DNA from: a virus
IMG/VR virus record: IMGVR_UViG_3300049734_000086
Coordinates: 10,431-74,430 of that record
DNA: 64,000 bases
Strand: one strand, 5' to 3'
The position numbers were made by a program, and so were the translations under genes. The notes under the pieces are model-generated. The model did not search any database, was not told the origin of the DNA, and saw only the letters and a program-made list of their open reading frames with translations. This document shows, in pieces, positions 31,683 through 64,000 of the stretch (its first letter is position 1; every line of letters starts with the position of its first letter).

Positions 31683-34600
31683 ATGGCCGACGGGATCTTC
31701 AAATCGGAGGACATCGAGCTGGTCGTCCGGGTGCTCAATGACCCGGAGTGCCCTGCACACATTCGGAGCATCACCACCGAGCATGACCATCAGCAGGCGG
31801 TGCTCGACCATGCCCGCCGCCTCCTGAATCAGGCGGGGGACAGGCAGCGTGAGATAGAGGGTCGGCTGCTCAAGGCGTGCCAGGAGTACGTACGGGAGAA
31901 GGAGAAGGGAGACTGATCATGCTGACTGACTACGAACGAGAGAACATCACGGCGCTCATCACGGTGATCGAGCGCGAGGACGAGGTCCAGTGCTACATGG
32001 GCGACTGGCTCAGGGTCGACGGGCTCATGGAGCAGTTGAAGCCCGTGAGCGAGCGGGGGCGGCCCGGGTGCGGCACCGTGGGGTGTCTGGCCGGGACTGC
32101 CGTGGTGAACCTGCTGCCCTCGCTGCTCATGCCCGGCACGGGGCTCAACACCGGGGCGAGGCGGTCGTACGAGCACGTTCTGGTGCCCTACGAGTGGGCC
32201 CTGAGCAACAACGTCGAGATACGCGAGGTAGTCGACGGCGTGGAGTTCGAGCTGACGCCAGGGACCATGACCAAGACGACAGCGGCCAGGGTCCCGATCT
32301 CTCATGCGGCCCAGGTCCTGCTGGGGGAGACGGTGGCGCGGGCCTTCTACCTGACCGACGCGCCCCATGACGAGCAGATGAGCGACAAGGAGTGGATGCT
32401 GATGGTCCTGCGTCTGGCCTTGAGGGGCCGGTTGGACGAGTACATCGACGACCGCATCTACGAGAACTAGAGGGGAGGACACTATGCGCTACCAGACACA
32501 CGGACGCAGTGGGGTACGGAGACTCCAGGGCTGGGCCTGCACGACCAGACTGGTGATTGACGGCTGGTCGAGTACCGGCTGGACAGGGGACGGGGAGGTT
32601 GCGTACGTACACGTGGCCGGGTTCACCGCCCAGCCCATCATGGGGGGCCTGTTGCTGTCGGTGTTCGACGAGCACCGGCAGTTCCTCGGGACGGTGGGGA
32701 ACGTGCGGGAGCTGCCATGATCCGGGCGCTTCTGAGCCTGGGTGGCCGGTTGCGGTGGCACCCGAGACGGCCGCACCAGTGGAGCCGGTGGGCCATCGGG
32801 GAACGGACGCTGTTCGGGCCGTATGGGACGACCAAGGACCCGATCAATGTGCGGAGGTGCGAGCGGTGCGGCATGAGCCAGCATGCCCGGATTGATGAGA
32901 AGGTGCCGCAGTCGTGCGGCGGGGAGGAGCTGCCATGAAGGCCACGACCCCAGCGGGGCTGGTGAAAGGCGCGGGGATTCCCCAGGGCCCGCGCGTGAAC
33001 ACGTTCGTCGAGTGCGGCTGCTGTGGGCAGTACCACCGCACCGACTTCCGGGGCGACTGCCGGGAGGACAGCGAGCGGTACCCCGACCTGCCTGTGGGGG
33101 CCGAGTTGGTGGAGGAGGAGGAGTTGCCATGACCAAGGACCAGCAGGCCAGACCGGCCAGACCGGCCACGGTGTTCGTCGAGTTCACCGTCCAGATCAGA
33201 CTGGAGACGCTGCAGGACCTGCTCAGTACCGCCGTGGAGCAGGGGTGCCCGTACTGGGCCGAGTTCGACGAGGTGCAGACCAACCGTGACACCAACGCAC
33301 CGGTCCAGAGCTGTGGGTGGTACTACACATCGGTACGTGTGGCCGAGCGCGAGCCCAGTAAGGGGGCGGCGCGGAAGCGGTTCGTGGTGACCCCGCGCCG
33401 GATGGTGGAGGGGCTGGAGAAGCTGGCCCGGGCCGACCACGAGAAGTTCCCGGCGGCCGGGAAGCACCTCGCCGACGCCTTGACCGGGGACTGGGACGCC
33501 GTGACGGCCGACGTGGTCCTGCAGATGGCGACGTTCGGGGAGCTGGTGTACGGCTGATGGAGGCGATGTCATGACAGTCAAGGAGTTCATTCGCGTGCTC
33601 AGGAAATTCCCGCCTGACGCCCTAGTGGTGACCACACGCCACAGCGATTCGGTGGAGGCTGCCGCGCCGATCGCGGAGAAGGGGATCAAGCGGCAGGCCG
33701 GGGCGTACGTCGAGGTGCTGACCACCCGCCGCTACGGTCTCCTGCATAAGACCCCGGCGCAATACAAGGCGGACTGGGAGGCGTACGAGGCCTCGATGTC
33801 GGCCCAGGATCGGGCGTTGCTGGTGGATGTGGCCTACATCGAGGGGGAGGACGGCTGATGGACCCCGACGCCAATCTCAAGGAGCAGCGGGAGCTGGTAC
33901 GGGACATCCGGCGCTACATCGAGAACGAGGGCCGCGCGCCGACCGACGACACCGACCGGCTGGTCGATCTCGTCGAGGCCCTGGACGAGTGGATCGTGAA
34001 AGGAGGATTCCTGCCGCGTGACTGGCGTCAATGGGAACGCCGCCGCGACCTGACCAAAGACTGACCACGGAGACCGTAGACTGTAGAGTACGACGCACGG
34101 AACATTACCTCGTGACACGAATGGAGAGACCGATGACCAAGCACACTACGTCGAGACGGATGACGAAGCGACCCAATCAGAAGGCCCAGCCACGGGCGGT
34201 GAAGGGGGATCTGGTCAAGACGCCCAGTACCCCGAGCCGGTTGCTGGCGACCAAGGCGCAGCTCCAGGCCCAGGCCGAACAGGGCGCTGCGGTGGCGGGG
34301 ACCGGCAAGACCACGACCATCACCACCAAACCCACGCACAAGCCCACAGCCTCGGCGGTCAGTCTGGTGGCGCAGTTCATCACCGACCGCATCGAGGGCG
34401 AGCTGCTGCTCCGCGACCCGCTGGTGTTCGTCAAGGACGCCATCGTGCATCAGGGGCAGATCACGTTCGTCAAGTACGTCCTCCGGCGCGAGGGGGTGAA
34501 TACCCCGTACGGGTTCATCTACCTCACCGAGCGGCAGGCCGAGGGCGTGGGGACGATGGTGGCACTGGGGGTGCGGTGATGGCGCTGACCCACCAAGACC

Positions 34601-36267: not shown

Positions 36268-37881
36268 ATGACCCTACAGACCGTACGACACTGGAGCCCT
36301 GCCCAGCAGGCCATCTTCGAGTGGATCGAGCATCCCGAACGTAACACTAAGCGCAATCTGGTCGTGGAGGCCAAGGCGGGAACCGGCAAGACCACCACCA
36401 TCATCGAGGGTGTCAACCGTGCCCCCGACCCCCTGGCCCTGCTCTCGGCCTTCAACAAGTCCATCGCTACCGAACTCCAGCGCCGCCTGACCCGGCCCGG
36501 AGCCGAGGCTTTCACACTCCATTCCATCGGCTTCCAGTGCGTGAAGCGGGTGTGGCGTGGGGTGCGGGTGGACGAGAACCAGAACCGTCACTGGAATCTG
36601 GCCAGGACGGTGGTGGGGTGCGCGGACAGGCGGGGGATCCTGAGCCTGGAGCCCGGGGCGGTGCAGGCCCCGTTCTCCGTGGTCAGACTGATGGCCAGTC
36701 TCAACCAGCAGGTCCGGGAACTCACCGCCTTCCCGACCCGCGACGACATCATGGACATCATGGTGGAGTACGAGCTGTCGCCGGACGACCAGCTCAAGAT
36801 GATGGGCTGGCAGCCCGAGCGGCTGGCGGAACTGACCCTCCAGGTCCTGGAGACGGCCGCCACCGTCCGTCCCCCGGCGGGGATCGACTTCGCCGACATG
36901 CTGTTCCTGCCGGTCAGGAACAACTGGATGGTCCCCGCCTACGACCTCGTAGTCATCGACGAGCGCCAGGACATGAACCCACTACAAGTGGCCATCGCCA
37001 AGGGGGTGTGCAAGCCCGGTGGGCGCATCATCGCGGTCGGGGACACCCGGCAGGCCATCTACGGGTTCAGGGGCGCGGACACCAAGTCCCTCGATGCCCT
37101 GCAGCAGGAGCTGGATGCTGATGTACTCCCGCTCAACACCACGTACAGGTGCGGCAAGGCCATCGTGGCCGTGGCCAAGGAGCTGGTGCCCGAGTTCGAG
37201 GCCGGGGAGGAGAACCCAGAAGGGGTAGTACGGACTGTGGGCATGGACCAGATGCTGGAGCAGATCGGGCCGGAGGACTTCATGCTCTCCCGGATCAACG
37301 CCCCGATGATTGCCGTGGCCATGAGCCTGATCCGCGCCGGGAAGCGGACCCGGGTGCAGGGCAACGAGCTGGGCAAGGGGCTCAAGGCCCTGGCGGTGAG
37401 ACTGGCCAAGGAGGCCGGGAGCGTGGAGGACTGGCTCGACGCCCTGGGACGGTGGGAGATGGAGGAGGTGCGGCGGGCCGAGGAGCGGGACATGCAGCGC
37501 CGGGCCGACTTCGTCAGGGATCAAGCCGAGACCCTGAGAGTGGTAGCGGACGGCATCACGTCGGTGAGTGAGGTGTCGACCCGGCTCTCCCAGTTGTTCG
37601 ACGTAAACCCCAACCTGCCCGGGTTCATCGTCTGTAGCTCCGTGCATCGGGCCAAGGGGCTGGAGGCCGAGCGGGTGTTCGTGCTCCGGGACACCCTGGA
37701 CCTGCCAGTACCGTGTGACTGCGGGCATCGGCACCAGGGGAAGGAAGCGTGTCCGAAGGGGTGCGGGTGTACCAAGTACCGGGTCAATGCCGTGGCGCAG
37801 CAGGAGGAGAAGAATCTGACCTACGTGGCCGTGACCCGGGCCAAGCAGGAATTGGTGTGGGTGGTCGGGGAGAAGGAGTAG
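36268..37881 (+). CDS. UvrD/Rep-like SF1 helicase
   Basis: AKAGTGKT, IDERQD, GDTRQAIYGFRGAD, YRC, HRAKGLE, YVAVTRA. Confidence 0.92.
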   Translation: MTLQTVRHWSPAQQAIFEWIEHPERNTKRNLVVEAKAGTGKTTTIIEGVNRAPDPLALLSAFNKSIATELQRRLTRPGAEAFTLHSIGFQCVKRVWRGVRVDENQNRHWNLARTVVGCADRRGILSLEPGAVQAPFSVVRLMASLNQQVRELTAFPTRDDIMDIMVEYELSPDDQLKMMGWQPERLAELTLQVLETAATVRPPAGIDFADMLFLPVRNNWMVPAYDLVVIDERQDMNPLQVAIAKGVCKPGGRIIAVGDTRQAIYGFRGADTKSLDALQQELDADVLPLNTTYRCGKAIVAVAKELVPEFEAGEENPEGVVRTVGMDQMLEQIGPEDFMLSRINAPMIAVAMSLIRAGKRTRVQGNELGKGLKALAVRLAKEAGSVEDWLDALGRWEMEEVRRAEERDMQRRADFVRDQAETLRVVADGITSVSEVSTRLSQLFDVNPNLPGFIVCSSVHRAKGLEAERVFVLRDTLDLPVPCDCGHRHQGKEACPKGCGCTKYRVNAVAQQEEKNLTYVAVTRAKQELVWVVGEKE

Positions 37882-37883
37882 GG

Positions 37884-40800
37884 ATGCGGGCCATGGTCGT
37901 CACGGCGATCCTGCTCTCCCACTTGGCGGTGGGTCTGGCCAAGTCGGCCAGTGAGTTGGCGGAGACGGTGTGGGAGTGGTGGAGGGACAGCAGGGACGGG
38001 AGGGAGGGGGAGTCATGAAGCGTTCCATCGATGTCGAGGTCAGGAAGCAGAAGGGGATCCGAGGCGTCATCACCGGCTACGTCGCCAGTGTCGGGCCCAT
38101 CGAGGCCTACGGGACCACCGAGGAGGGGGCCGTGGAGGGGGTCGAGGAGCTGGTCCGGCAGGCGTTGGGACGGCTGGACCAGGGCCCATTGACCGGACAG
38201 GTCTACGGCAACTGGTACGTGGTGTTCCCGACGGCCCAGGGCTGGGGCACATGGTGCGACGTGTACTCGGGGCAGAACTACTACACCGAGAACGGGTGTG
38301 ACAGCCGGGACGAGGCCGAGAGGAGCATCATCAGGCATCTGGCCTTGCAGTCCTGGACGTTCGAGGCCGCCAGTGACGAGGAGTACGTCCTGGGGGTGCC
38401 GAAGCTGACCGAGCGGGAGAGGAAGGAGGTGCTGGCCCAGCTCCGGTGGTACCGGGAGATGAAGCGGCTGGTGGGGAAGGGGTACACGGACCACGAGGCC
38501 AGACAGATCATCGGCGGGTTCATGACAGAGACGGCGGAGGGGCCCCATGCCTAGGAACGTGCGGAACTGGTGGCTGGAGCTGGACATCGACGGCAAGACA
38601 CAGCGCATCGAGGCCGGGCCCCAGTCGAGAGTGGGCGGGTTCACCCTGACCATCAAGCAGCGGGACCAGGGGGACATCGTGACGGCCCTGGAGGTCACAG
38701 GGCTGGCCGACGGGCGTGGGAATCTACTCCTGCGGGCCGAGATGGACGCCTGTGAGCCGCTGGAGTTCCGGTCGACGAGGGACTAAAGCCATGAAGCGGA
38801 TCAGAGACTGGCTGTCGTCGCTGGACCTGGAGGACTGGGCCGCCCTGGCGTGCCTGGGGAGCCTGCTGTTCCTGCTGTTCATCTTCGCGGACTATCTGAT
38901 GTGGAGGACGCTATGAGTCGAGAGTACGAAGTCGAGCGGTTCGACGTAGAGGGCCTGACGGTGCGGATCGTCCAGGACCCCGACCCCCAGGACCCACGGG
39001 AGGATGACAACCTGGGCACCATGGTGTGCTGGCACCGGAGGGCCACACTGGGCGACGGGGGGCTGTACACACGGAAGGGGATGGAGCAGTTCAAGTTCGC
39101 CGAGCCCCAGGACTACTACCGCTGGAAGGAACTGACCAGTGAGGACGGCGACCCCGTGGCCGTGGAGCTGCCCCTCAGCCTCTACGAGCACGGCGGCATG
39201 ACCATGTGGGCGGGGCGGCCGGGCGAAGGGCCACCGGGGACCAACTGCCAGTGGGACAGCGGGCAGGTCGGGTACATCTTCGTGACCCGGAAGAAGGCCC
39301 TGGCGGACATGGGCTGGAAGCTGCTGACGATGACCCGGCTGCAGAAGCTGACCGAGATACTGACCAGCGAGGTCAAGACCTACGACCAGTTCCTCCAAGG
39401 CGACATCTACGGCTACGTGGTGGAGGACGTGGAGGGGGAGTCCCTGGACTCGTGCTGGGGGTTCTACGGGATGGAGGAGGTCAGGAGCGAGGGGAAGGGC
39501 GCGGCCGAGTGCATCCTGGCCGAGCGGGAGAAGGCCAGGAAGGACGAGCAGGAGGAGCGTGATGGAGCTTGACGCCAAGCGGGTCTACAAGGGGCTGCGC
39601 GGACTGGTCCGGCGGGTACGGATCCTGGAGAACGACCGCAATCTCAAACGCCACTGCAGCGCCAAGAGCATGAAGGCCTTGGCGGAGCTGTCCTTGATGG
39701 CCGACAAGCTGGAGGCGGTGTTCCAGATGGCTGTGGAGGAGAGCGATGGCGCATGATCGCAACCCGCACCTCCCGGCCATTGGCAGCCCCTGGACCCACG
39801 CCATCAAGAAGCGGCTGTGGCCCAGACCACTGCTCAACCAGGCGGCGAGGCCGGTGCGGCGGAGGCCGCTGAGGAAGCTGCTCGCGGATCTGCGGAAGCA
39901 GTCACTGCAACGGTGGATGAATCTGTCGCGCTACAGCCGAAAGAGGTATCGACCATGAGCACTCCCTACTGGACCATCGAACGAGCCTTCAAGGCCGGGT
40001 TCAATGCCGGGTTCGCCGTGACGGGAGAGGGCTGGAACCAGGAGTACCCGTTCAGCACCCAGGATCCGTCTGACCAGAGCCGTGAGAAGGAGCGGGCAGA
40101 CGACCTGGAGAGATACATCCACGAGCGGCAGGCCGCCTGGGAGCAGTTCCAGCGAGACCTGAAGGCTGGGAAGACACCGGAGACCGACCAATGAAAACCT
40201 TCGACTACATCCGCGCCTGGGACCGCATCGCCTATCCGGCGTGGCAGACCCTGAGTCCTGACATCAAAGCCCTGGTCTTACGGACCCACGTGGTCGCCAA
40301 GGATCTGGGGCAGGGGGACGATCTCCAGATGCTGTGGCCCGAGGTTCTGAAGACCAGGGTCCACTTCCGTATGTCGTTCGAGGACTTCACCTCGGCCGAT
40401 CTGGCCTTCGCGGCCCGGGTTGTCAATGCCCTGGGCCACTGGTACCACGCCCGGGCCGAGCACCAGGAGCCGTGGCTCGACGACCGGCTTGGGACGCACT
40501 GGAAGTTCGCCCGCTACTGCGACCAAGTCCTGCAGGCCAGACTGCAGATCCCACAGCCCGTGGGCTCGAGTACCACCGGGTTCGGCCTGGAGATCCACGA
40601 GGGGGCCATCCGGCTCACCTACGCCTCCACCCGCTCGTGGTCCTGGCGGGAGGTGGCCGTGGCGACCGAGGAGGGCAAGACGCTGGCCGAGCAGATCAAG
40701 GCCGACAGCCAGCGGAGGATCAGTAACATCAACCGCTCCTGGGCTGCCCGCCGTGACAGGGAGGCCTGGACCTACATGGAGTACCTGAAGTCCCCGGGCG

Positions 40801-55546: not shown

Positions 55547-56191
55547 GTGTCCAACGGCCTGCTGCGCGATACGTGGGAGTACCCCCACGGCGACCCCTCG
55601 ATCAAGATTTTCACTGACGCCACACGGAGATGGGACATGCGGATCCCCGAGGGCGGACGTGTCCTGGAGCTGGGCTGCGACGAGTCGGACTGGGCGGCCT
55701 GGATGAAGAAGGCGCGGCCCGACCTCACCATCATCGGTGTGGATGTGCGGGAGGTGAAGGGGTACGGCGGGGACCAGATGGTGGTGCAGGATGCAGCCGA
55801 CGAGTTCTGGCACATCGCCAACGCCTCCAGTATCGACGCCGTGATCTGCATCGGCAGCCTGGAGCACTTCGGTCTGGCCTACCAGTACTACGGCGACCCC
55901 AGGAACGAGAACGGTGATCGGTACACCGTGGACAACGCCTACCACTGGCTGACTCCCGGTGGTTTCCTCTACTACGACGTGCCATGGACGCCCGGGGTGT
56001 TCTTCATCTCCAGCAACAATCACTGGCGCTGTTACGCCGACCAGCAAGTGGAGCAGAGACTGACCTCTGTGCTCAGACCCATGGACCGGGGGTACGCCCA
56101 CCCGCACACGCAGCAGTGGCAGGACCTACGGCCCCTGGTACCGGCCGAGCCGTTCTGGTACCTGGCCCGGTGGTTGAGAAAGGATCCGTGA
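55547..56191 (+). CDS. class I SAM-dependent methyltransferase
   Basis: VLELGC, GVD, SLEHFGL, LTPGG. Confidence 0.8.
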   Translation: MSNGLLRDTWEYPHGDPSIKIFTDATRRWDMRIPEGGRVLELGCDESDWAAWMKKARPDLTIIGVDVREVKGYGGDQMVVQDAADEFWHIANASSIDAVICIGSLEHFGLAYQYYGDPRNENGDRYTVDNAYHWLTPGGFLYYDVPWTPGVFFISSNNHWRCYADQQVEQRLTSVLRPMDRGYAHPHTQQWQDLRPLVPAEPFWYLARWLRKDP

Positions 56192-56193
56192 CC

Positions 56194-56520
56194 ATGAACG
56201 CGAAAGACTACTTGGCCCTGCGCGAGGCGATCAAGAACCAGGAGCAGGTGACGGTCGAGTACAACAAGCCGGGGCGCGGAGTCGTGAGACGCCATGTCCG
56301 GCCCTACGAGGACAGTGTGAATAGGAGCGGGCGGCCGGTGATCTGGGGGACTGACAGCATCCATGGCCCCCGGCAGATCCACGCCTTCCGCCAGGACCGG
56401 ATCGTGAGCGTGAAGGAGAGCCAGCGGCCCAAGGAGTTCAAGCGGGCCAAGAGCATCGACAAGTACCTGGTGAGCGGCAACCCCGACAAAGCGGACGAAT
56501 TTGACCCCAACGGAGGATAG
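56194..56520 (+). CDS. stand-alone WYL-domain protein
   Basis: AIK....V.Y......R.V.PY......F..DRI. Confidence 0.75.
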   Translation: MNAKDYLALREAIKNQEQVTVEYNKPGRGVVRRHVRPYEDSVNRSGRPVIWGTDSIHGPRQIHAFRQDRIVSVKESQRPKEFKRAKSIDKYLVSGNPDKADEFDPNGG

Positions 56521-56934: not shown

Positions 56935-57564
56935 ATGAGAGACCACGACCGCCGCATCATCCACAGCTCGGTCGAGTCCGACTACCGCACCCCCATGGAA
57001 CTGATCTCCTCCCTCGACGAGGAGTTCCACTTCACCACCGACGTGTGCGCCAGCCACCGCAACGCCCTGTTCGCCAAGTGGTTCGGCCCTGGCCACCAGG
57101 ATCCGGCCCGCCGGGACGCCCTCTACAACGGCACCTGGGGAACAGGACCGCACTTCATCAACCCGCCCTACTCGAAGAAGCGAGCCGACGAGCTGAGGAA
57201 GGCCGGGGCCCCCGAGCCGGAGTGGCGCTGCTACCTGATCGAGCGGTGGGCCGAGCGGTGCTGGATGGAGAGTCTGACCCAGGTGGTCGTGGGCCTGTTC
57301 CCGTACTCCTCCCAGACGGCGTGGTGGAAGGAGCATGTCTGGCAGGGGGGCCGGATGGCCGACGGGTCCAAGCCCGAAATCCACTGGCGATGGCACCGGG
57401 CCTCGGAGGTCAGACTCTTCCACCACCGGCTGTCGTACCTCGACCCCGAGGGGATACCGACGGGGAACTCGGCCGGGGTCAACAGCGCCGTGATCGTATG
57501 GAAGCCCCCGTGCGGGTACGTGGAGCCGTGGGTGCCAACAGTGAGGTACTGGACCTACGAGTGA
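56935..57564 (+). CDS. phage DNA N6-adenine methyltransferase (Dam-like)
   Basis: YRTP, F..DVCAS..NA, NPPYS, T.WW, EVR. Confidence 0.85.
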   Translation: MRDHDRRIIHSSVESDYRTPMELISSLDEEFHFTTDVCASHRNALFAKWFGPGHQDPARRDALYNGTWGTGPHFINPPYSKKRADELRKAGAPEPEWRCYLIERWAERCWMESLTQVVVGLFPYSSQTAWWKEHVWQGGRMADGSKPEIHWRWHRASEVRLFHHRLSYLDPEGIPTGNSAGVNSAVIVWKPPCGYVEPWVPTVRYWTYE

Positions 57565-57621
57565 GAAGACCGTTCGTTTCGCTTGACAACCGAAGACCAA
57601 CCGATGACCAAGGAGACCACA

Positions 57622-58434
57622 ATGGCTACGAAGAAAACCGCTGACAAGTCGATCACGGCCAACGCTGAGATCGTAGAAATCCTGGAAGTCTCACGCGGGC
57701 AGATCGAGTGCTGCTTGCTCGGGGCGACTCCCTACATCTGCAACCGTATGAGCGAGAAGGGGGCGCGGGAACTGCTCATCCCCCGAGGCCGCAAGACCTC
57801 CGCAGAGAAAGCCACCACGCTCAAGCACGACCCACGGCTGGAGTACCGCTCCTCGCCCTACCTTGTCTCCGACCCCGCCTTCCCCACCTACATCGGCATC
57901 CTGGCCACCAGCTTCAAGAAGGCCATGATGACGGCGGCACTGGACATCCCTGGAGCCAAGAAGGCCCAGATCGCCCGCCTCGTTCACGTGCGCGCCGAGA
58001 CCGCCAATCAGCTCATTCCCCTCTACGGGGTGCCCGAGCTGCACATGGCCACAGTGCGCTCGGCCGACATGAACCGCACGCCAGACATCCGCACCAGGGC
58101 GACCCTCCCCAAGTGGGCCTGCAAGGTCACTATCACGTACGCAGTCCCGATGCTCCGGCCCCAGGCCATCGCCAACCTCCTGGCAGCGGCCGGGCAGATG
58201 TCCGGGGTCGGGGACTGGCGCGGGGAGAAGGGCTCGGGGAACTTCGGCGAGTTCGCCATCGTGGGCCCGGACAACCCAGAGTTCCTGGCCGTGATGCAGG
58301 CTGGTGGACGGGAAGCGCAACAGGCCGCGATTGAAGCGCCGAAGTGCTTCGACGACGAGACCCAGGACCTGCTCGATTACTACGACGGGGAGCTGAAGAG
58401 TCGAGAGCTGCGCGGAAAGGTAGCGGCTGTCTAA
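57622..58434 (+). CDS. Cas7/RAMP-like RNA-binding protein
   Basis: N-terminal strand + G.TPY, SFKKAM helix, C-terminal Gly-rich loop AGQMSGVGDWRGEKGSGNFGEF; AGGAG RBS. Confidence 0.65.
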   Translation: MATKKTADKSITANAEIVEILEVSRGQIECCLLGATPYICNRMSEKGARELLIPRGRKTSAEKATTLKHDPRLEYRSSPYLVSDPAFPTYIGILATSFKKAMMTAALDIPGAKKAQIARLVHVRAETANQLIPLYGVPELHMATVRSADMNRTPDIRTRATLPKWACKVTITYAVPMLRPQAIANLLAAAGQMSGVGDWRGEKGSGNFGEFAIVGPDNPEFLAVMQAGGREAQQAAIEAPKCFDDETQDLLDYYDGELKSRELRGKVAAV

Positions 58435-58902
58435 ATGAAGCTCTCGGCATTACAAATCGCATACATCCAGTCGTTCGGCGAGCGGGTCACAGCATCCCAG
58501 ATCGTCGCCGATGCCAAGCGGCTGGAGAGCCCCCTGCACGGGGAGTTCAACTGGGATGTCCAGGAAGCGGCCGAGCGCCACTGGCTGGACACGGCGAGGA
58601 GGATCATTCGCTCGGTGCCCTTGATGGTGGTGACCACGACCGCCACCATCAGGGCCCCGTACTACGTCCCGGATCCCGACAAGAAGGGGAACGAGGAAGG
58701 CTACGTGTCGCTGCCCGCGTTAGGGGAGCGGCCGAGGGCGTCCCAGATCCAGGCCCTGGTCAATGAGTGTGACCGTGTGGGCCGGGTGCTGCAGCGGGCC
58801 AGAGGGGTTGCGGCCGGGCTGGGGTTGGAAGACGAGGTCGAAGCGGTGCTGGAGCGGCTAGCCGGATTGAGACTGGCCATACAGGACACACTGGCGGCCT
58901 GA
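58435..58902 (+). CDS. small helical partner protein of the RAMP-like gene
   Basis: Abuts upstream stop; SPLH..F.WD..AAE..W...AR.II motif. Confidence 0.7.
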   Translation: MKLSALQIAYIQSFGERVTASQIVADAKRLESPLHGEFNWDVQEAAERHWLDTARRIIRSVPLMVVTTTATIRAPYYVPDPDKKGNEEGYVSLPALGERPRASQIQALVNECDRVGRVLQRARGVAAGLGLEDEVEAVLERLAGLRLAIQDTLAA

Positions 58903-58908
58903 TACCAG

Positions 58909-59810
58909 GGCAGTCATGGCCAAGCAGGGCATGGACTGATCTGGCACGGCGCGGTACGGCCGTCGAGGCTGCGACTGGTACGGTGTCGACCGGCCAGTCG
59001 CGGCGCGGCGGGGCGAGGTGCGGCAGGCATGGAGTGGTACGGCACGGAGAGCTGTGGTACGGCATGGAGAGGCAGTCATGGTTCGGATTGGCCAGGAGAG
59101 CCGTGGATAGTCGGGGCCGGGCGTGGCGGTCGCGGATAGGCGAGGCTAGACCTGGACTGATCGGAGCAAGGATTGGCGGTCGAGGCGAGGCGGGGCTTCA
59201 CGTGGCGCGGGTAGGCCCGGGAAGGCCGGGACTGGCATGGCGGTCAGCGCATGGCAAGGAGTGGTGTGTGGTTGTCACGGCGAGGCGCGGCGAGGATAGG
59301 CCGACAAGGTATGAACAGTTATGGCGCGGAGAGCTGTGCTAAGGAGCAGACTGGCCGTCGAGGTCAGATGCGGATTGTCACGGAGCGGAGGGGCTAGGTG
59401 AGGCTGTCCAGGACGGGCACGGCCGGGCGGAGAGGGGCCGGGCGAAGGTGAGGCAAGGCCGTCGTGGCCACACTGGGAGGGGTGGGGTACGGCGACGACG
59501 GGAGAGGCAAGGCAGTTCTGGCTGCATCAGGAGGGTCATGGCATGGCCGGGCGTGGCAAGGGCGCGGCTGTCGGCGCAAGGATTGCTGTGGAGTGACGCA
59601 GCACAGCAAGGCAGGGCGGTCGCGGAGTGGAGAGCCAAGGACTGCACCGGAGAGGCCTGCCGTGGTGAGGCGGTCGAGGCGGGGACGGGCATGGTCGGGA
59701 GACGGCAGGGCGAGCCAGGGATAGGCGGGGCGGTCCCGGCACGAGAAGGAAAGCAAAGGAAGGGAGGGACAAGATAACGCATGGCGAGAACGGCTGTGGC
59801 TCGGCAGGCC
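58909..59810 (+). ncRNA. array of ~16 units of (GGH-NN)n pentamers delimited by GGCNGTC; putative guide RNA array
   Basis: 5-nt periodicity read directly; delimiters at 58909, 58958, 59022, 59071, 59125, 59175, 59239, 59299, 59353, 59402, 59457, 59511, 59566, 59615, 59669, 59729. Confidence 0.7.
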
Positions 59811-62537
59811 AGGAAGGACAGTCTGCCGAGTCGACCAGTAGACTATCGGCTCTCACCGAATCACGTCCCCGGCCACGGCCCCCACGACGCCGACATCATG
59901 ATCGTCGGCGAAGGCCCGGGCCGGGTCGAGGACCGGGAGCGGCTGCCGTTCGTAGGCCCCAGTGGTCAGATTCTCACCGACGCCCTCGAACGTCCCGACC
60001 CACCACTCCTGCGCCGGGACTGCTACATCACCAACATCATCAAGCGCAGAATCCAGGACGACGAGGACCCGACGCCCGAGGAGATCGCGTACTTCACCCC
60101 CGAACTCCTTCGGGAGCTGGAGGAGGTGGACCCCGACGTGGTGATCGCGGCCGGGGCCTTCGCGGCCAGATTCTTCCTCGGGCCCGACTTCAACATGGAG
60201 TGGCAGCACGGGATGCCTGCGTGGAGCCATCAGTACGGGGTACCCGTCGTCCCCTGCTATCACCCCGCCTCCGCCCTCCATGACACCGAGCAGATGGACG
60301 CCGTCTACTGGGACTACGCCCGGGCCGGGGCCTTTGTGCGCGGGGTACTGGGGCTCCATCAGCCGAAGCCGAGGGTGACCCAGGTCCTCGACGCCGACCT
60401 GTTGCCGACCTTCCTGCCCCAGAACAGTACCCTGGGCATCGACACCGAGGACAAGGTCGACGGGACCCCCTGGTGCGCGACGGTGAGCTGGAAGGACGGC
60501 TCGGGGTGCTTCATCCCCGGCGACGACGAGCGGTCGGTCAAGCGGCTGCGTGTCCTACTGACCGACCCCACCCTCGCCGTCTACATCCACAACACCATGC
60601 ACGACCTCAAACCGCTCCGTCAGATGGGCGTGGACGTGGGGCGCGGGCTCGATTGGAGCCACCGGGGGGACTACGCGCGGGTGGTCGACACCATGGTCCT
60701 GGCCTTCGAGCAGGGCAAGATCCACACCCAGGGCCTCAAGACCCTCGCCTACCGCCTGCTGAACATCATCATGCAGGAGTACATGGACATCGTCGGGCCC
60801 GTGGCCCAGGAGCGGGCGTACTGGAAACTGGTCAAGTGGGCCGGTCACCAGTGGCCAGTCCCCGAGGCCACACCCAGTTACAACCCCGAGACCGGCAAGC
60901 TGACATGGTCCCGGCCCTGGGGGCTCAACACCCACTTCAACCGCCTGCTCGCGGACTTCAATCCTGCGCTCCGGGACTACCTGTACTTCAAGGCCACCAA
61001 GAAACGGCCCACGCCCCCGGAGGTGGACTTCGACTACATCCCGAACCCGGCCGTCGATCTCATCAAGCGATGGGAGAAGGTGGACCTATTCAAACGCGAG
61101 CAGGTCTCGGCCCAGTACGGCACTCACCGCATTGACGACACCGACCTCTCCCACTGCGACTTCACCACGGCCGCCCACTATGCCTGCCAGGACGCCGATG
61201 TCACACGGATCCTGGGCCGGGACCTGGAGGCCAGACACCGGATTCTGGACCTCACCGAGATCAGCGAGATCGACCACGGCCAGATCCCCATGGTCGAGCG
61301 CATGCAGGGCAACGGCATGCCCAGCGACCCCGACCACTTCCGCGCCCTCAGCCGGGAGATGCGGGAGCACGAGGCCACGCTGATTGGGGTACTCGAAACC
61401 ATCACCGGCCGCGAGCTGAACCCCAATAGCACCGACCAAGTCGCCGACCTCCTCTTCAAGGAGATGAAGCTGGAGGCCATCAAGACGACCAGGACCGGGA
61501 AGCTCAGTACCGGCAAGAAGGCCTTACAACACCTGCGGAAGACCAACCCGGTGGTCGAGTGGATCATGTCGAGCCGCGAGCACGTGAAGGTCTCGGGCTT
61601 CTGCGAGTCCATCGTCGAGTACACCCGGCTGATGGTCGACGGGGAGTACCGGGCCTTCTACGAGCTGATGGTCACCCGGGCCAAGACCGGCAGACTGGCC
61701 AGCAAGAAATTCAACGCCCTGGCCATCCCCGTACGGACTGCGCTGGGGAAGCGGATCCGGCACGGGTTCAAGGCGCGGCCCGGGCGGCAGTTGGGAACCT
61801 GGGACCTGAACCAGATCGAGATGCGGGTCATGGCCCACCGCAGCCAGGACCCCTTGATGCTGGAGATCTACAACCGCAACCCCAAGCGGTTCGCCAAGTG
61901 GGAGCGGGACCTGCACGTCGAGACCGCCAGCAAGATCTGGGGCTGTAGTCTCCAGGACGTGAAGAAGGACTGGAGGACCGCCGCCAAGTCCACGGGCTTC
62001 GGCATCATCATGGGCATCACGGGCGTGGGCCTCAGTGACCAGATGCGGCTCTACGGCCTGAACCCAGAGGACTGGCCCGAGGACCGCTGCGACGAGCTGA
62101 TCGCCGACTGGCTGAGGATCTACAAGGGGGTGAACGACTACCAGCAGGTGAAACGCGCCGAGGCCCGGAGGACGGGGGAAGTCCGGGACCTGTTCGACCG
62201 CCGCCACCGGCTGCCCCATGCCACCTGTCCACTGAGCTGGATCCGGGGGGAGGCCGAGCGGCAGTCGCATGCGCTCGATATTCAGGGCAGTGCCCAGGCG
62301 ATCGAGAAGATCTGCATGGCCAGAATCTGGCGCGAGCTGCTGCCGGAGCTGCGGTGGATGGGGCACTGCGAGCCCCTGCTGCAAGTACATGACGAACTGG
62401 TGTGGGAGTTCGACGAAGACCTGGGGCCGGTGATCGACCCCTTGATGCTGCACTACTTGACCACCACGGTCAGTCTCAGCGTCCCGATAGAGGCAGGCGG
62501 GGCGATGGGGCAGTCGTGGGGAGACTTGGAGAAGTGA
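59781..62537 (+). CDS. family A DNA polymerase with N-terminal uracil-DNA glycosylase (family 4-like) domain
   Basis: VGEGPG..E....PFVG.SG and YHP (UDG); IDTE, HN, YACQD (exo); DLNQIEMR, R..AK...FG, VHDE (pol); start uncertain. Confidence 0.92.
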   Translation: MARTAVARQARKDSLPSRPVDYRLSPNHVPGHGPHDADIMIVGEGPGRVEDRERLPFVGPSGQILTDALERPDPPLLRRDCYITNIIKRRIQDDEDPTPEEIAYFTPELLRELEEVDPDVVIAAGAFAARFFLGPDFNMEWQHGMPAWSHQYGVPVVPCYHPASALHDTEQMDAVYWDYARAGAFVRGVLGLHQPKPRVTQVLDADLLPTFLPQNSTLGIDTEDKVDGTPWCATVSWKDGSGCFIPGDDERSVKRLRVLLTDPTLAVYIHNTMHDLKPLRQMGVDVGRGLDWSHRGDYARVVDTMVLAFEQGKIHTQGLKTLAYRLLNIIMQEYMDIVGPVAQERAYWKLVKWAGHQWPVPEATPSYNPETGKLTWSRPWGLNTHFNRLLADFNPALRDYLYFKATKKRPTPPEVDFDYIPNPAVDLIKRWEKVDLFKREQVSAQYGTHRIDDTDLSHCDFTTAAHYACQDADVTRILGRDLEARHRILDLTEISEIDHGQIPMVERMQGNGMPSDPDHFRALSREMREHEATLIGVLETITGRELNPNSTDQVADLLFKEMKLEAIKTTRTGKLSTGKKALQHLRKTNPVVEWIMSSREHVKVSGFCESIVEYTRLMVDGEYRAFYELMVTRAKTGRLASKKFNALAIPVRTALGKRIRHGFKARPGRQLGTWDLNQIEMRVMAHRSQDPLMLEIYNRNPKRFAKWERDLHVETASKIWGCSLQDVKKDWRTAAKSTGFGIIMGITGVGLSDQMRLYGLNPEDWPEDRCDELIADWLRIYKGVNDYQQVKRAEARRTGEVRDLFDRRHRLPHATCPLSWIRGEAERQSHALDIQGSAQAIEKICMARIWRELLPELRWMGHCEPLLQVHDELVWEFDEDLGPVIDPLMLHYLTTTVSLSVPIEAGGAMGQSWGDLEK

Positions 62538-62746
62538 TGAACGGACGCTACATCGCCAAGACCTTGGCTGACTACCCGACGCTACGGTCGACTGGAATCA
62601 TCAGCGCCGTGGTCGTGCAAGAATTTCTAACCGAGCAGGACCCTGGTGAGGGGTACCGGCTTCTACCGCCCACGCAGTTCACGGGCGGCTGGATGTTCAT
62701 TTGGGAATGGCAGCCCAGCGACGGCAAACACGACTGACCCCGTGCG

Positions 62747-62776
62747 TTGACCGCACACTGACCTTCTAGGTAAGAT
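62747..62776 (+). promoter_or_regulatory. putative sigma70-type promoter
   Basis: TTGACC-18 bp-TAAGAT upstream of 62813. Confidence 0.45.
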
Positions 62777-62812
62777 TGACCCCGTACGACCTCAAACAAG
62801 GAGCAACCCGCA

Positions 62813-63454
62813 ATGGCAACCAGCAAGAAGAAAGGCTTCATGGCCGACTCCGTCCGCAAGGCGAAGCTGAAGTTCGGCACCAGTACCAGCACCAAGCCCA
62901 AGGCCCACGCCGCAAAAGCCAAACCGGCCCCGGCCCGCAAGAAGAAGACCAAGGCCAAGGGCCCCAAGCCCCCGCGCCCGGTCGGGGTCTCCACGCCCAG
63001 CCCCACGGCCACCGAGACCGAGGGCACCTTCACCCAGTACCCCGTCCTGGCCAGCCTGCCCGACCTCGTGAACCTTCACCAGACCGCCCACAAGGACATC
63101 AAGGACGCCCTGGCCTCCGTGGCCAGTATCACGGGCCCGGCCGAACAGGTGAAGAAGAAGGCAGCCGGGGACATCGAGGCCCTGCTCGTCGCCGCCGACC
63201 TGGACGGGACCGAGGACGAGGGCGTGACGGTCGGGGAGCGCCGGGTCAAGCGGATCGAGGTCCAGGGTGAGGAGTACGTGGACACGGTCATGCTGCTGGA
63301 GGCCGGGGTCCCCATCGACACCATCAAGGCCTGCACCAAGCGCAAGGAGGGCTACTCCTACGCCCTGGTCATCAACCCGAAGAAGAAGGGCCAGACGGCC
63401 ACGGTGGCGGACGCTGAGGAAGGAGAGGGCCATGGCCACAAGAAGTACGCCTAA
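62813..63454 (+). CDS. hypothetical protein with Lys-rich N-terminus
   Basis: AGGAG RBS; 213 aa. Confidence 0.6.
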   Translation: MATSKKKGFMADSVRKAKLKFGTSTSTKPKAHAAKAKPAPARKKKTKAKGPKPPRPVGVSTPSPTATETEGTFTQYPVLASLPDLVNLHQTAHKDIKDALASVASITGPAEQVKKKAAGDIEALLVAADLDGTEDEGVTVGERRVKRIEVQGEEYVDTVMLLEAGVPIDTIKACTKRKEGYSYALVINPKKKGQTATVADAEEGEGHGHKKYA

Positions 63455-63878
63455 GAAGAAGAAGGCCAAGGTCAGGACCACGGCTAGAACCCCCAAACGG
63501 CAGGCCAGGGTGACCGCCAGGACACGACCATCGACCCCCACGGCCAAGGAGTGGGGGGTGGTCAACGTGGCTCCTGAGGTCTTCCAGGACGCCCTGCGGC
63601 ACCCCGAGACCGTCTTCGTGCCCCTCCGCAACGCCTTCGACCAGGACGGGTTCGAGGCCCAGGACCGGCGGCTCATCGTCCGGGACAAGCAGGACGGCCG
63701 TCTGGCCGTGGGGAAGGCGATTGCGACCGAGCCTCACGGCATCACCCTCGGCACCCTGTGGCGGCTGCCCCCCGAGTACAGACTGGCCCAGGGGGAGTAC
63801 CTCACCGGGGCCATGGTGGTGCTGGTAAGCCCCAACATCCCGCCCAAGGCGAAGTTCATCGTCGACCGGATGAGGTAG
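63432..63878 (+). CDS. hypothetical protein with basic N-terminus
   Basis: MATRSTPKKKK start after GGAG. Confidence 0.55.
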   Translation: MATRSTPKKKKAKVRTTARTPKRQARVTARTRPSTPTAKEWGVVNVAPEVFQDALRHPETVFVPLRNAFDQDGFEAQDRRLIVRDKQDGRLAVGKAIATEPHGITLGTLWRLPPEYRLAQGEYLTGAMVVLVSPNIPPKAKFIVDRMR

Positions 63879-64000
63879 GGGGAAGTGGACAGCCGGGGGC
63901 GAGTCGTGTAGGCTTCCGGGCCTATGCGATAGCTCCTCACATAGCCAGACAAGTACCACGAGAGACCGTAGCGGCCCGCCACTCATGCATCCCAGGCATG

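What the first reader, a model, noticed from the sequence alone, without database searches (positions are those of the whole stretch)
58909..59729. Variable dinucleotides of the array read like codon positions 1+2 (wobble-skipping code)
Seen: I extracted NN by hand from the ten in-phase (5n+4) units, 100 dinucleotides in all. First-base counts are G45 A26 C19 T10 and second-base counts are T31 A31 C24 G14. Known: this is the usual asymmetry of codon positions 1 and 2, and it is unlike this GC-rich genome overall. Read as NNx codons the units give protein-like strings. Unit 58909 (AT CA AG AT CT CT AC GC AC) gives I/M-Q/H-R/S-I/M-L-L-T-A-T, like SF2 helicase motif III. Unit 58958 (GA TG CT AC GT CC CA GC GC GG GA GC) gives E/D-W/C-L-T-V-P-Q/H-A-A, like an excisionase-type HTH start. 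Unit 59615 gives A-V-E/D-K/N-L-P-E/D-L-V-E/D. Inference: guides specify gapped targets (NN.NN.NN.) in coding genes and skip every third base, which would make targeting insensitive to synonymous escape. I saw no self-match in the window but could not search exhaustively.
Basis: partly seen in the sequence, partly recalled or inferred. Interest (0 to 1): 0.92.

Follow-up and report, generated by a model that had tools for sequence, protein, structure and literature searches.

The report
Phage VIPR guide-RNA array, codon-like code

Summary
Window 58905-59735 is an array of about 160 YNNGG pentamers, and most phase shifts are -1 at CNGT(C) junctions. The variable NN pairs match this phage's own codon positions 1+2 in sense (r 0.83). 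They do not match antisense, other frames or YNNGG context elsewhere in the genome.

The element is a "staggered" vrRNA array of a VIPR system (bioRxiv 10.64898/2026.04.26.720920). Just upstream lie a Cas7-like Vipr gene (57622-58434) and its conserved partner (58435-58902).

The array-protein link holds in both directions. 23 of 60 arrays found by pattern alone sit beside a Vipr homolog. 65 of 80 loci found by the protein alone carry arrays.

I found no natural target. Gapped scans for four guides gave nothing above chance, and the named helicase and excisionase resemblances have no support.

This scan has met VIPR arrays in at least ten other genomes. This one is a new member of a known kind. 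Its mildly new points are a CNGT junction variant and a strong coding-strand sense bias in this clade.

The parts
57622..58434 (+). vipr: 270-aa Cas7/RAMP-like protein that should polymerise on the repeats, one protomer per pentamer
   Evidence: ATG with an AAGGAG ribosome site 6 nt upstream. The family has more than 2000 members and no Pfam domain. AlphaFold2 model pLDDT 85. Top Foldseek matches are Csm3, Cmr4 and Cas7 chains, E 4.5e-5, prob 1.0. D198 and R200 are invariant and W199 nearly invariant in G-V-G-D-W-R, like the SUSP1 Vipr G-loop D177 W178 R179. Homologs sit beside arrays in 23 of 60 pattern-found loci.
58435..58902 (+). vap: 155-aa accessory protein, fold only weakly winged-helix-like
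   Evidence: A homolog lies directly downstream of vipr in about 60 metagenome loci. AlphaFold2 pLDDT 90. Best Foldseek rows are winged-helix regulators, with E no better than 0.034. The Pfam PDDEXK_12 hit is below its cut-off.
58905..59735 (+). staggered vrRNA array: about 160 YNNGG pentamers in about 18-21 candidate guides joined by CNGT(C) junctions with 1-nt overlap
   Evidence: RNA fold z -6.0 on the + strand and +0.3 on the - strand. No Rfam family.
58915..58959 (+). guide g01, 9 units, NN = AT CA AG AT CT CT AC GC AC
   Evidence: The gap-1 pattern has 0 exact matches in IMG/VR.
59028..59072 (+). guide g04, 9 units, NN = AT GT AC AC GA GT AC AT GA
   Evidence: One IMG/VR match, against about one expected by chance.
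59077..59126 (+). guide g05, 10 units (possibly two guides split at ATAGT|C)
   Evidence: Not scanned.
59181..59240 (+). guide g07, 12 units, 11 of them canonical; the longest guide
   Evidence: No exact gap-1 match in IMG/VR, JGI metagenomes or GTDB genomes.
59305..59354 (+). guide g10, 10 units, half of them degenerate
59463..59512 (+). guide g13, 10 units
59621..59670 (+). guide g15, 10 units, NN = GC GT GA AA CT CC GA CT GT GA (A-V-D/E-K/N-L-P-D/E-L-V-D/E)
   Evidence: IMG/VR hits: 10 loci at gap 1, 0 at gap 2, 1 with shuffled order. The hits fall in unrelated proteins.
58968..59004 (+). 11-bp hairpin inside the array (arms 58968-58978 and 58994-59004)
   Evidence: pair I2. Role unknown.
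59736..59780 (+). A-rich degenerate tail that runs into the ribosome site of the UDG-PolA gene (start 59781)

Best explanation
Window 57622-59735 is a complete VIPR (Viral Interference Programmable Repeat) cassette of a soil phage: vipr, vap and a staggered array of about 18-21 guide RNAs (vrRNAs).

Mechanism, shown for relatives and inferred here: the array is transcribed on the + strand and cut at the CNGT|C junctions into RNAs of about 30-65 nt. Vipr protomers bind one YNNGG unit each, bury the GGY bases and present the NN pairs. The filament then binds double-stranded DNA whose sequence reads NN-x-NN-x, skipping one base per unit, and silences transcription of a rival phage or mobile element.

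Because targets are mostly coding genes read in frame, the NN pairs carry the statistics of codon positions 1 and 2, and the skipped base is the wobble base.

Shown here: the array anatomy, the Cas7-like fold and G-loop motif of Vipr, the conserved vipr-vap-array linkage, and the codon-like, sense-oriented NN composition. Inferred from the preprints: RNA processing, filament assembly, the 1-nt skip and silencing.
For: Array anatomy.

Published system and rule: 9-16 YNNGG repeats, 1-nt skip, wobble alignment, and staggered arrays with 1-nt overlap in fig. S18.

Vipr candidate: pLDDT 85. Foldseek top hits are all Cas7-family chains, E 4.5e-5. The GDWR G-loop is conserved (compared).

Linkage in both directions: 23 of 60 viral contigs found only by a (GGNNN)7GG pattern encode a Vipr homolog within 500 nt on the G-rich strand. 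Of 80 metagenome loci found only by the protein, 65 carry called guides, and in 63 of these they are only on the vipr strand. A vap homolog follows vipr in about 60 loci. Of the gaps between successive called guides in these relatives, 145 are exactly 4 nt. The commonest short junctions are CAGG (73), CAGT (34) and CTGG (21), the same architecture as the window's CNGT.

Codon-likeness.

No self-target in the 74-kb genome above the shuffled level, as the preprint reports for its systems.
Against: No natural target was found. Guides g01, g04 and g07 gave 0, 1 and 0 exact gap-1 matches in IMG/VR, and g07 gave none in JGI metagenomes or GTDB genomes. The g15 excess (10 against 0 and 1) dissolves on inspection into a common peptide word found in unrelated proteins, with one hit out of frame.

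In a 1.7-Mb local set, 514 guides showed no gap-1 excess over gaps 0, 2, 3 or shuffles.

Transcription and processing are not shown. RNA-library contigs cover parts of the array, but they carry no strand information and DNA carry-over is not excluded.

SUSP1 Vipr could not be aligned or superposed, because VIPR structures are not in the PDB copy. The equivalence of the DWR motif is therefore by pattern only. The VIPR type (I-VII) was not assigned.
Confidence: 0.9

Rival explanations
1. The array is a non-guide element: a protein sponge (TRAP- or CsrA-like ring binder), a G-rich R-loop or origin element, or simply a long structured 5' leader of the UDG-PolA gene. On this view the NN composition is incidental.
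For: The array sits directly upstream of polA, with no terminator or promoter consensus between vap and polA. GC skew is +0.29. The + strand RNA folds better than shuffles, z -6. Units of 49-54 nt resemble the footprint of a ring of 10-11 subunits (my own reasoning before the literature check).
Against: The same grammar recurs beside Vipr homologs in many unrelated phages, whatever the downstream gene. GGA is only 26% of units, so it is not a CsrA motif. NN statistics match codon positions 1+2, including their interaction terms, which no sponge or origin model predicts. PolA relatives at 31-41% identity have no such array upstream.
Confidence: 0.04
2. The codon-like NN composition is a by-product of local sequence context or of what Vipr tolerates (for example a purine preferred after Y, and G avoided before GG), not a record of coding targets.
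For: N2 = G would create GGG and blur the register, so some bias is expected. The first unit of each guide is constrained in the family (AA 21%, GA 20%, AT 10%).
Against: YNNGG contexts elsewhere in the same genome give r 0.03 with the array's NN. After base marginals are removed, the 16 interaction residuals of 2987 family NN still correlate at 0.89 with codon positions 1+2 (AG, CC and TA depleted; CG, TT and AA enriched), permutation p 5e-5. Published targets of relatives are in-frame coding matches.
Confidence: 0.04
3. It is a VIPR array, but many guides are decayed or aimed at elements that are absent from public data, so the cassette may be partly relict.
For: Several guides have 30-55% degenerate units (g10, g14c, g15). 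No target was found in three large collections for the best guide.
Against: The searches needed exact matches and covered only four guides. The vipr and vap frames are intact and conserved. The preprint notes frequent internal degeneracy in working vrRNAs.
Confidence: 0.25

Closest known systems
VIPR systems with staggered vrRNA arrays (bioRxiv 10.64898/2026.04.26.720920, fig. S18)
   Same: It has YNNGG repeats with fixed GGY and variable NN, about 9-12 units per guide. Successive guides overlap by 1 nt, so units are 5n+4 long. A small RAMP protein and one accessory gene lie alongside, and the host is a phage.
   Different: The junction pentamer here is C-N-G-T-C, whereas the commonest form in relatives is C-A-G-G-C. 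About 18-21 guides sit in one 830-nt block placed directly ahead of a UDG-PolA gene. The type number is not assigned.
Type II VIPR of Escherichia phage SUSP1 and the Pseudomonas fulva prophage (same preprint; structures in 10.64898/2026.04.26.720927)
   Same: The repeat code is the same, and the G-loop D-W-R motif reads the GGY bases. The targeting logic with a 1-nt skip at the wobble base is the one the NN statistics here imply.
   Different: SUSP1 vrRNAs are separate RNAs of about 100 nt, each with a conserved structured 3' tail. Here there is no tail, only overlapping junctions. The proteins are too far apart for tblastn (one search finds only actinophage homologs). Published targets lie on both strands, whereas this clade's NN look almost purely sense.
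Class 1 CRISPR Cas7 backbone (Csm3/Cmr4) on crRNA
   Same: The protein has the RAMP fold. One protomer binds per fixed RNA period, and a thumb interrupts pairing at regular intervals.
   Different: The period is 5 with only 2 pairing bases, not 6 with 5. There is no CRISPR repeat-spacer array. Specificity is written inside the repeat itself.

Membership tests
VIPR system | vrRNA made of tandem YNNGG units (about 9-16) with conserved GGY and hypervariable NN | tested here: met
   159 pentamers, with G at 91% and 81% of the fixed positions and the third fixed position C/T 70%. NN uses all 16 boxes. Guides have 9-12 units.
VIPR system | Adjacent vipr gene encoding a minimal RAMP (RRM core, G-loop, thumb) | tested here: met
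   The 270-aa ORF lies 470 nt upstream on the same strand. The AF2 model has pLDDT 85. All significant Foldseek hits are Cas7-family chains.
VIPR system | G-loop residues that read GGY (SUSP1 D177, W178, R179) | tested here: inconclusive
   The G-D-W-R motif is conserved (D198 and R200 invariant, W199 at 90% or more in 35 sequences). No alignment or superposition with SUSP1 Vipr was possible.
VIPR system | One accessory vap gene in the operon | tested here: met
   The 155-aa ORF starts at the vipr stop. Homologs hold the same place in about 60 loci. The fold is only weakly winged-helix-like.
VIPR system | Encoded mainly by phages and proviruses | tested here: met
   The source is a 74-kb virus record. 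Neighbours include a phage DNA methylase and a UDG-PolA. Relatives occur in IMG/VR contigs and in Mycobacterium and Gordonia phages.
VIPR system, staggered array form | Successive vrRNAs overlap by 1 nt | tested here: met
   16 of 25 phase changes are -1. The junction C-N-G-T-C shares its last C with the next guide. In relatives, 145 gaps between successive guides are 4 nt.
VIPR system | vrRNAs expressed, processed and bound by Vipr | not testable with these tools
   Metatranscriptome contigs cover 59218-59368, 59462-59612 and 59718-59868, but they give no strand or end information and DNA carry-over is possible.
VIPR system | Natural targets that match NN with a 1-nt skip, with the skip base at the codon wobble position | tested here: inconclusive
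   Composition fits. Exact scans for g01, g04, g07 and g15 found nothing above chance. Only exact matches could be searched.
CRISPR-Cas (class 1) | Repeat-spacer array of 25-40-nt direct repeats | tested here: not met
   There are no such repeats in 57000-64000. Of the six neighbouring ORFs scanned, only the Cas7-like protein resembles a Cas protein, and that by fold, not by any Pfam or PHROG family.
CsrA/RsmA sponge RNA | Many GGA motifs, typically in hairpin loops | tested here: not met
   The base after GG is C in 54% of units and A in only 26%. No Rfam match.

The most novel reading that the evidence does not exclude
In this Vipr clade the guides are almost all written in the sense of the coding strand. 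The window gives r 0.83 in sense against -0.30 in antisense, and 15 of 16 guides lean to sense. In 324 guides from 65 relatives the values are 0.89 against 0.00. The published systems hit both strands and silence from either one. A near-exclusive sense bias could mean that new guides are copied from transcripts or from the coding strand by an unknown acquisition route, or that this clade acts strand-specifically, for example on the template strand or on mRNA.
Probability: 0.15. Interest if true: 0.6.

Novelty: new member of a known kind. Interest (0 to 1): 0.3.

Why it matters
It shows that a reader working from raw sequence can recover the non-contiguous VIPR code. It also adds a well-resolved soil-phage example with about 20 guides.

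For the field, the useful points are these:
- A simple composition test (NN against codon positions 1+2, including interaction terms) flags guide arrays without knowing any target.
- This clade uses a staggered architecture with CAGG/CAGT/CNGT junctions.
- Its guides show an unexplained coding-strand sense bias.
- Homologous cassettes sit, annotated as hypothetical protein genes, in culturable Mycobacterium smegmatis and Gordonia phages, where the system could be tested at the bench.

Tried and rejected
- **Early ideas.** I considered a TRAP- or CsrA-like ring-protein sponge, a Rho rut site on the antisense strand, G-quadruplex beads, T7-type primase GTC sites and an R-loop origin. I dropped them once the Vipr link and the literature were found.
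- **No database matches.** Rfam had no match. DNA similarity to phage records found none.
- **PolA relatives.** Those in IMG/VR (31-41% identity) have no array.
- **Self-targets.** Best gap-1 matches in the phage's own genome are at the shuffled level. The MQPILLTAG near-match to g01 is internal to an ORF and is 14/18.
- **Local all-against-all test.** 514 guides against 1.7 Mb showed no gap-1 excess. The set is too small to be informative.
- **Guide g15.** It gave 10 IMG/VR loci at gap 1, 0 at gap 2 and 1 with shuffled order. The hits lie in a helicase, two tape-measure genes, small ORFs and one out-of-frame site. Eleven GTDB hits are in unrelated cellular proteins that look like Der, a dipeptidase and MiaB (my reading of the flanking residues; no family search was run on them). 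I read this as a common peptide word, not a target.
- **Guides g01, g04, g07.** No significant matches. The scans for g01 and g04, and the metagenome and genome scans for g07, included the first unit, which may be part of a handle.
- **Guides that start with AT.** They do not mark start codons: the family's first unit is biased to AA, GA and AT.
- **RNA-library contigs.** They show presence only, not transcription, strand or ends.
- **vap fold search.** No significant match.
- **Spurious calls.** The guide-like calls at window 24784, 26857 and 16860(-) lie in coding sequence and are taken as spurious.

Full report
**What is in the sequence.** The window is the last 64 kb of a 74,430-bp virus record with 65% G+C. 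An intergenic stretch lies between the stop of a 155-aa ORF (58902) and the start of a UDG-PolA fusion gene (59781). It has a strong 5-base period in G: the autocorrelation is 0.34, 0.31, 0.25 and 0.20 at lags 5, 10, 15 and 20. GC skew there is +0.29. No other place in the genome shows this signal.

A phase-aware parse gives 159 pentamers of the form Y-N-N-G-G. G fills the two fixed positions in 91% and 81% of units, and C, A and T fill the third in 54%, 26% and 16%. The register slips by -1 in 16 of 25 phase changes. Each slip occurs at a GGC-N-GTC motif, where a terminal pentamer C-N-G-T-C shares its last C with the first pentamer of the next unit.

**The codon-like claim.** On those 144 NN pairs, N1 is G41 A27 C21 T11 % and N2 is A32 T28 G20 C19 %. 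I built models from 49 long, high-GC3 ORFs of this phage. The log2-likelihood of the NN is:
- -557 for codon positions 1+2 in sense
- -599 for genome dinucleotides
- -602 for antisense
- -618 or lower for the other frames

Over the 16 NN boxes the correlation with codon positions 1+2 is 0.83 in sense and -0.30 in antisense. YNNGG contexts elsewhere in the same genome give 0.03, so local context does not explain the pattern.

In 324 guides from 65 independent relatives the sense correlation is 0.89 and the antisense correlation is 0.00. After base marginals are removed, the interaction residuals still correlate at 0.89 (AG, CC and TA depleted; CG, TT and AA enriched), with permutation p 5e-5.

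**What it is.** A scan of IMG/VR for (GGNNN)7GG hit more than 116 viral contigs. Sixty of them carry arrays of 300-1100 nt with the same grammar, at 36-80% G+C. Earlier notes of this scan pointed to VIPR systems, and I read the preprints. Their main points are:
- VIPR consists of a small RAMP protein (Vipr), an accessory gene (vap) and vrRNAs of 9-16 YNNGG repeats.
- Vipr protomers bind one repeat each, bury GGY and present NN.
- The NN pairs bind double-stranded DNA with one base skipped per unit, and that base usually falls at the codon wobble position.
- The authors argue that this defeats synonymous escape.
- They describe "staggered arrays" in which vrRNAs overlap by 1 nt.

The locus fits on every point that sequence can test.
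- **Vipr.** The ORF 57622-58434 (270 aa) belongs to a family of more than 2000 unannotated proteins. It folds with pLDDT 85, and all its significant structural matches are Cas7-family chains such as Csm3 and Cmr4 (E 4.5e-5). It carries a conserved G-D-W-R motif, like the SUSP1 G-loop D177-W178-R179 that reads GGY.
- **Vap.** The 155-aa ORF that follows is conserved in the same position in about 60 loci. Its fold is only weakly winged-helix-like.
- **Linkage in both directions.** Of 60 arrays found by pattern alone, 23 have a Vipr homolog within 500 nt on the G-rich strand. Of 80 metagenome loci found by the protein alone, 65 have called guides, and in 63 of these the guides lie only on the vipr strand.
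- **Junctions.** In these relatives, 145 gaps between successive guides are exactly 4 nt. The commonest short junctions are CAGG (73), CAGT (34) and CTGG (21). The window's CNGT is a variant of the same junction.

**How it most likely works.** The array is transcribed on the + strand, possibly together with vipr and vap, since no promoter or terminator consensus lies between them. It is cut at the junctions into guides of about 30-65 nt and coated by Vipr. The filaments bind NN-x-NN-x sites in genes of rival phages or mobile elements and silence them.

The anatomy, the protein fold, the linkage and the NN statistics are shown here. Processing, filament assembly, the 1-nt skip and silencing are taken from the experiments on SUSP1 and P. 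fulva systems.

Only exact pattern scans were available, and each collection was capped.
- Guide g15 (units 2-10) gave 10 IMG/VR loci at gap 1, 0 at gap 2 and 1 with shuffled unit order.
- Nine of the ten lie in open frames with NN at codon positions 1-2. Three of them are confirmed real frames (a helicase and two tape-measure genes).
- The hits fall in unrelated proteins, one is out of frame with the real gene, and no other guide converges on those contigs.
- The full 10-unit word occurs in 11 unrelated cellular open frames in GTDB genomes. I read it as a common peptide word.
- Guides g01, g04 and g07 gave 0, 1 and 0 matches in IMG/VR. Guide g07 gave none in JGI metagenomes or GTDB genomes.
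- There is no self-target above the shuffled level.
- A local test of 514 guides against 1.7 Mb was uninformative.

Natural targets therefore remain unknown. This neither supports nor refutes the code at this locus.

**Expression.** Contigs from four soil metatranscriptome libraries cover parts of the array at depths like those of the neighbouring genes. They give no strand or end information, and DNA carry-over cannot be excluded.

**Novelty and verdict.** The system and its wobble-skipping code were published in 2026, and this scan has already met VIPR arrays in at least ten other genomes. Three points are worth keeping:
- the CNGT junction variant;
- a strong coding-strand sense bias of guides in this clade, which the published both-strand targeting does not predict;
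- cassettes of the same family in culturable Mycobacterium and Gordonia phages, where the arrays are annotated as hypothetical protein genes.

Noticed in passing
L228:2172-2370 (NC_051636.1 about 37875-38073) and L229:3122-3322 (MN234179.1 about 33101-33301): Mycobacterium phage BobaPhett gene 52 and Gordonia phage Pipp gene 42 are Vipr homologs (27-28% identity). YNNGG arrays of 3-4 guides lie right beside them, under CDSs annotated as hypothetical proteins (genes 51 and 43). These CDSs are probably mis-annotated guide arrays in culturable phages.
   Followed up: partly
65 metagenome loci among L137-L216, and window 58915-59706: The first unit after each junction is less variable than the rest. 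In the family it is AA 21%, GA 20%, AT 10%. In the window it is AT in 4 guides, GA in 4 and GC in 3. It may belong to a 5' handle and not to the guide.
   Followed up: partly
L020:8201-8790: A contig with 47% G+C has pentamer blocks of about 70 nt separated by about 35-nt AT-rich spacers (TAAGTTTTTAAGAGG...). This is a non-staggered array form, perhaps with 3' tails as in type II VIPR.
   Followed up: no
L022:6795-7104 (- strand): A contig with 36% G+C carries a plain (ATGGA)n tract of about 17 near-identical units. It may be a GGA-type or degenerate relative, or only a microsatellite.
   Followed up: no
window 59781-62537: The gene after the array is a fusion of a family-4 uracil-DNA glycosylase domain, a 3'-5' exonuclease and a family A DNA polymerase. 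Public gene calls start it 39 codons later (P0001, 879 aa). Relatives at 49-56% identity exist only in metagenomes.
   Followed up: partly
window 58968-59004: An 11-bp hairpin (GCTGCGACTGG / CCAGTCGCGGC) lies inside the array across guides g02 and g03. Its role is unknown.
   Followed up: no
I did not examine it, and I do not know whether it relates to the VIPR cassette.
   Followed up: no
window 56935-57564 and 55984-56520: Upstream neighbours of vipr are a Dam-type N6-adenine DNA methyltransferase and a small WYL-domain protein.
   Followed up: no
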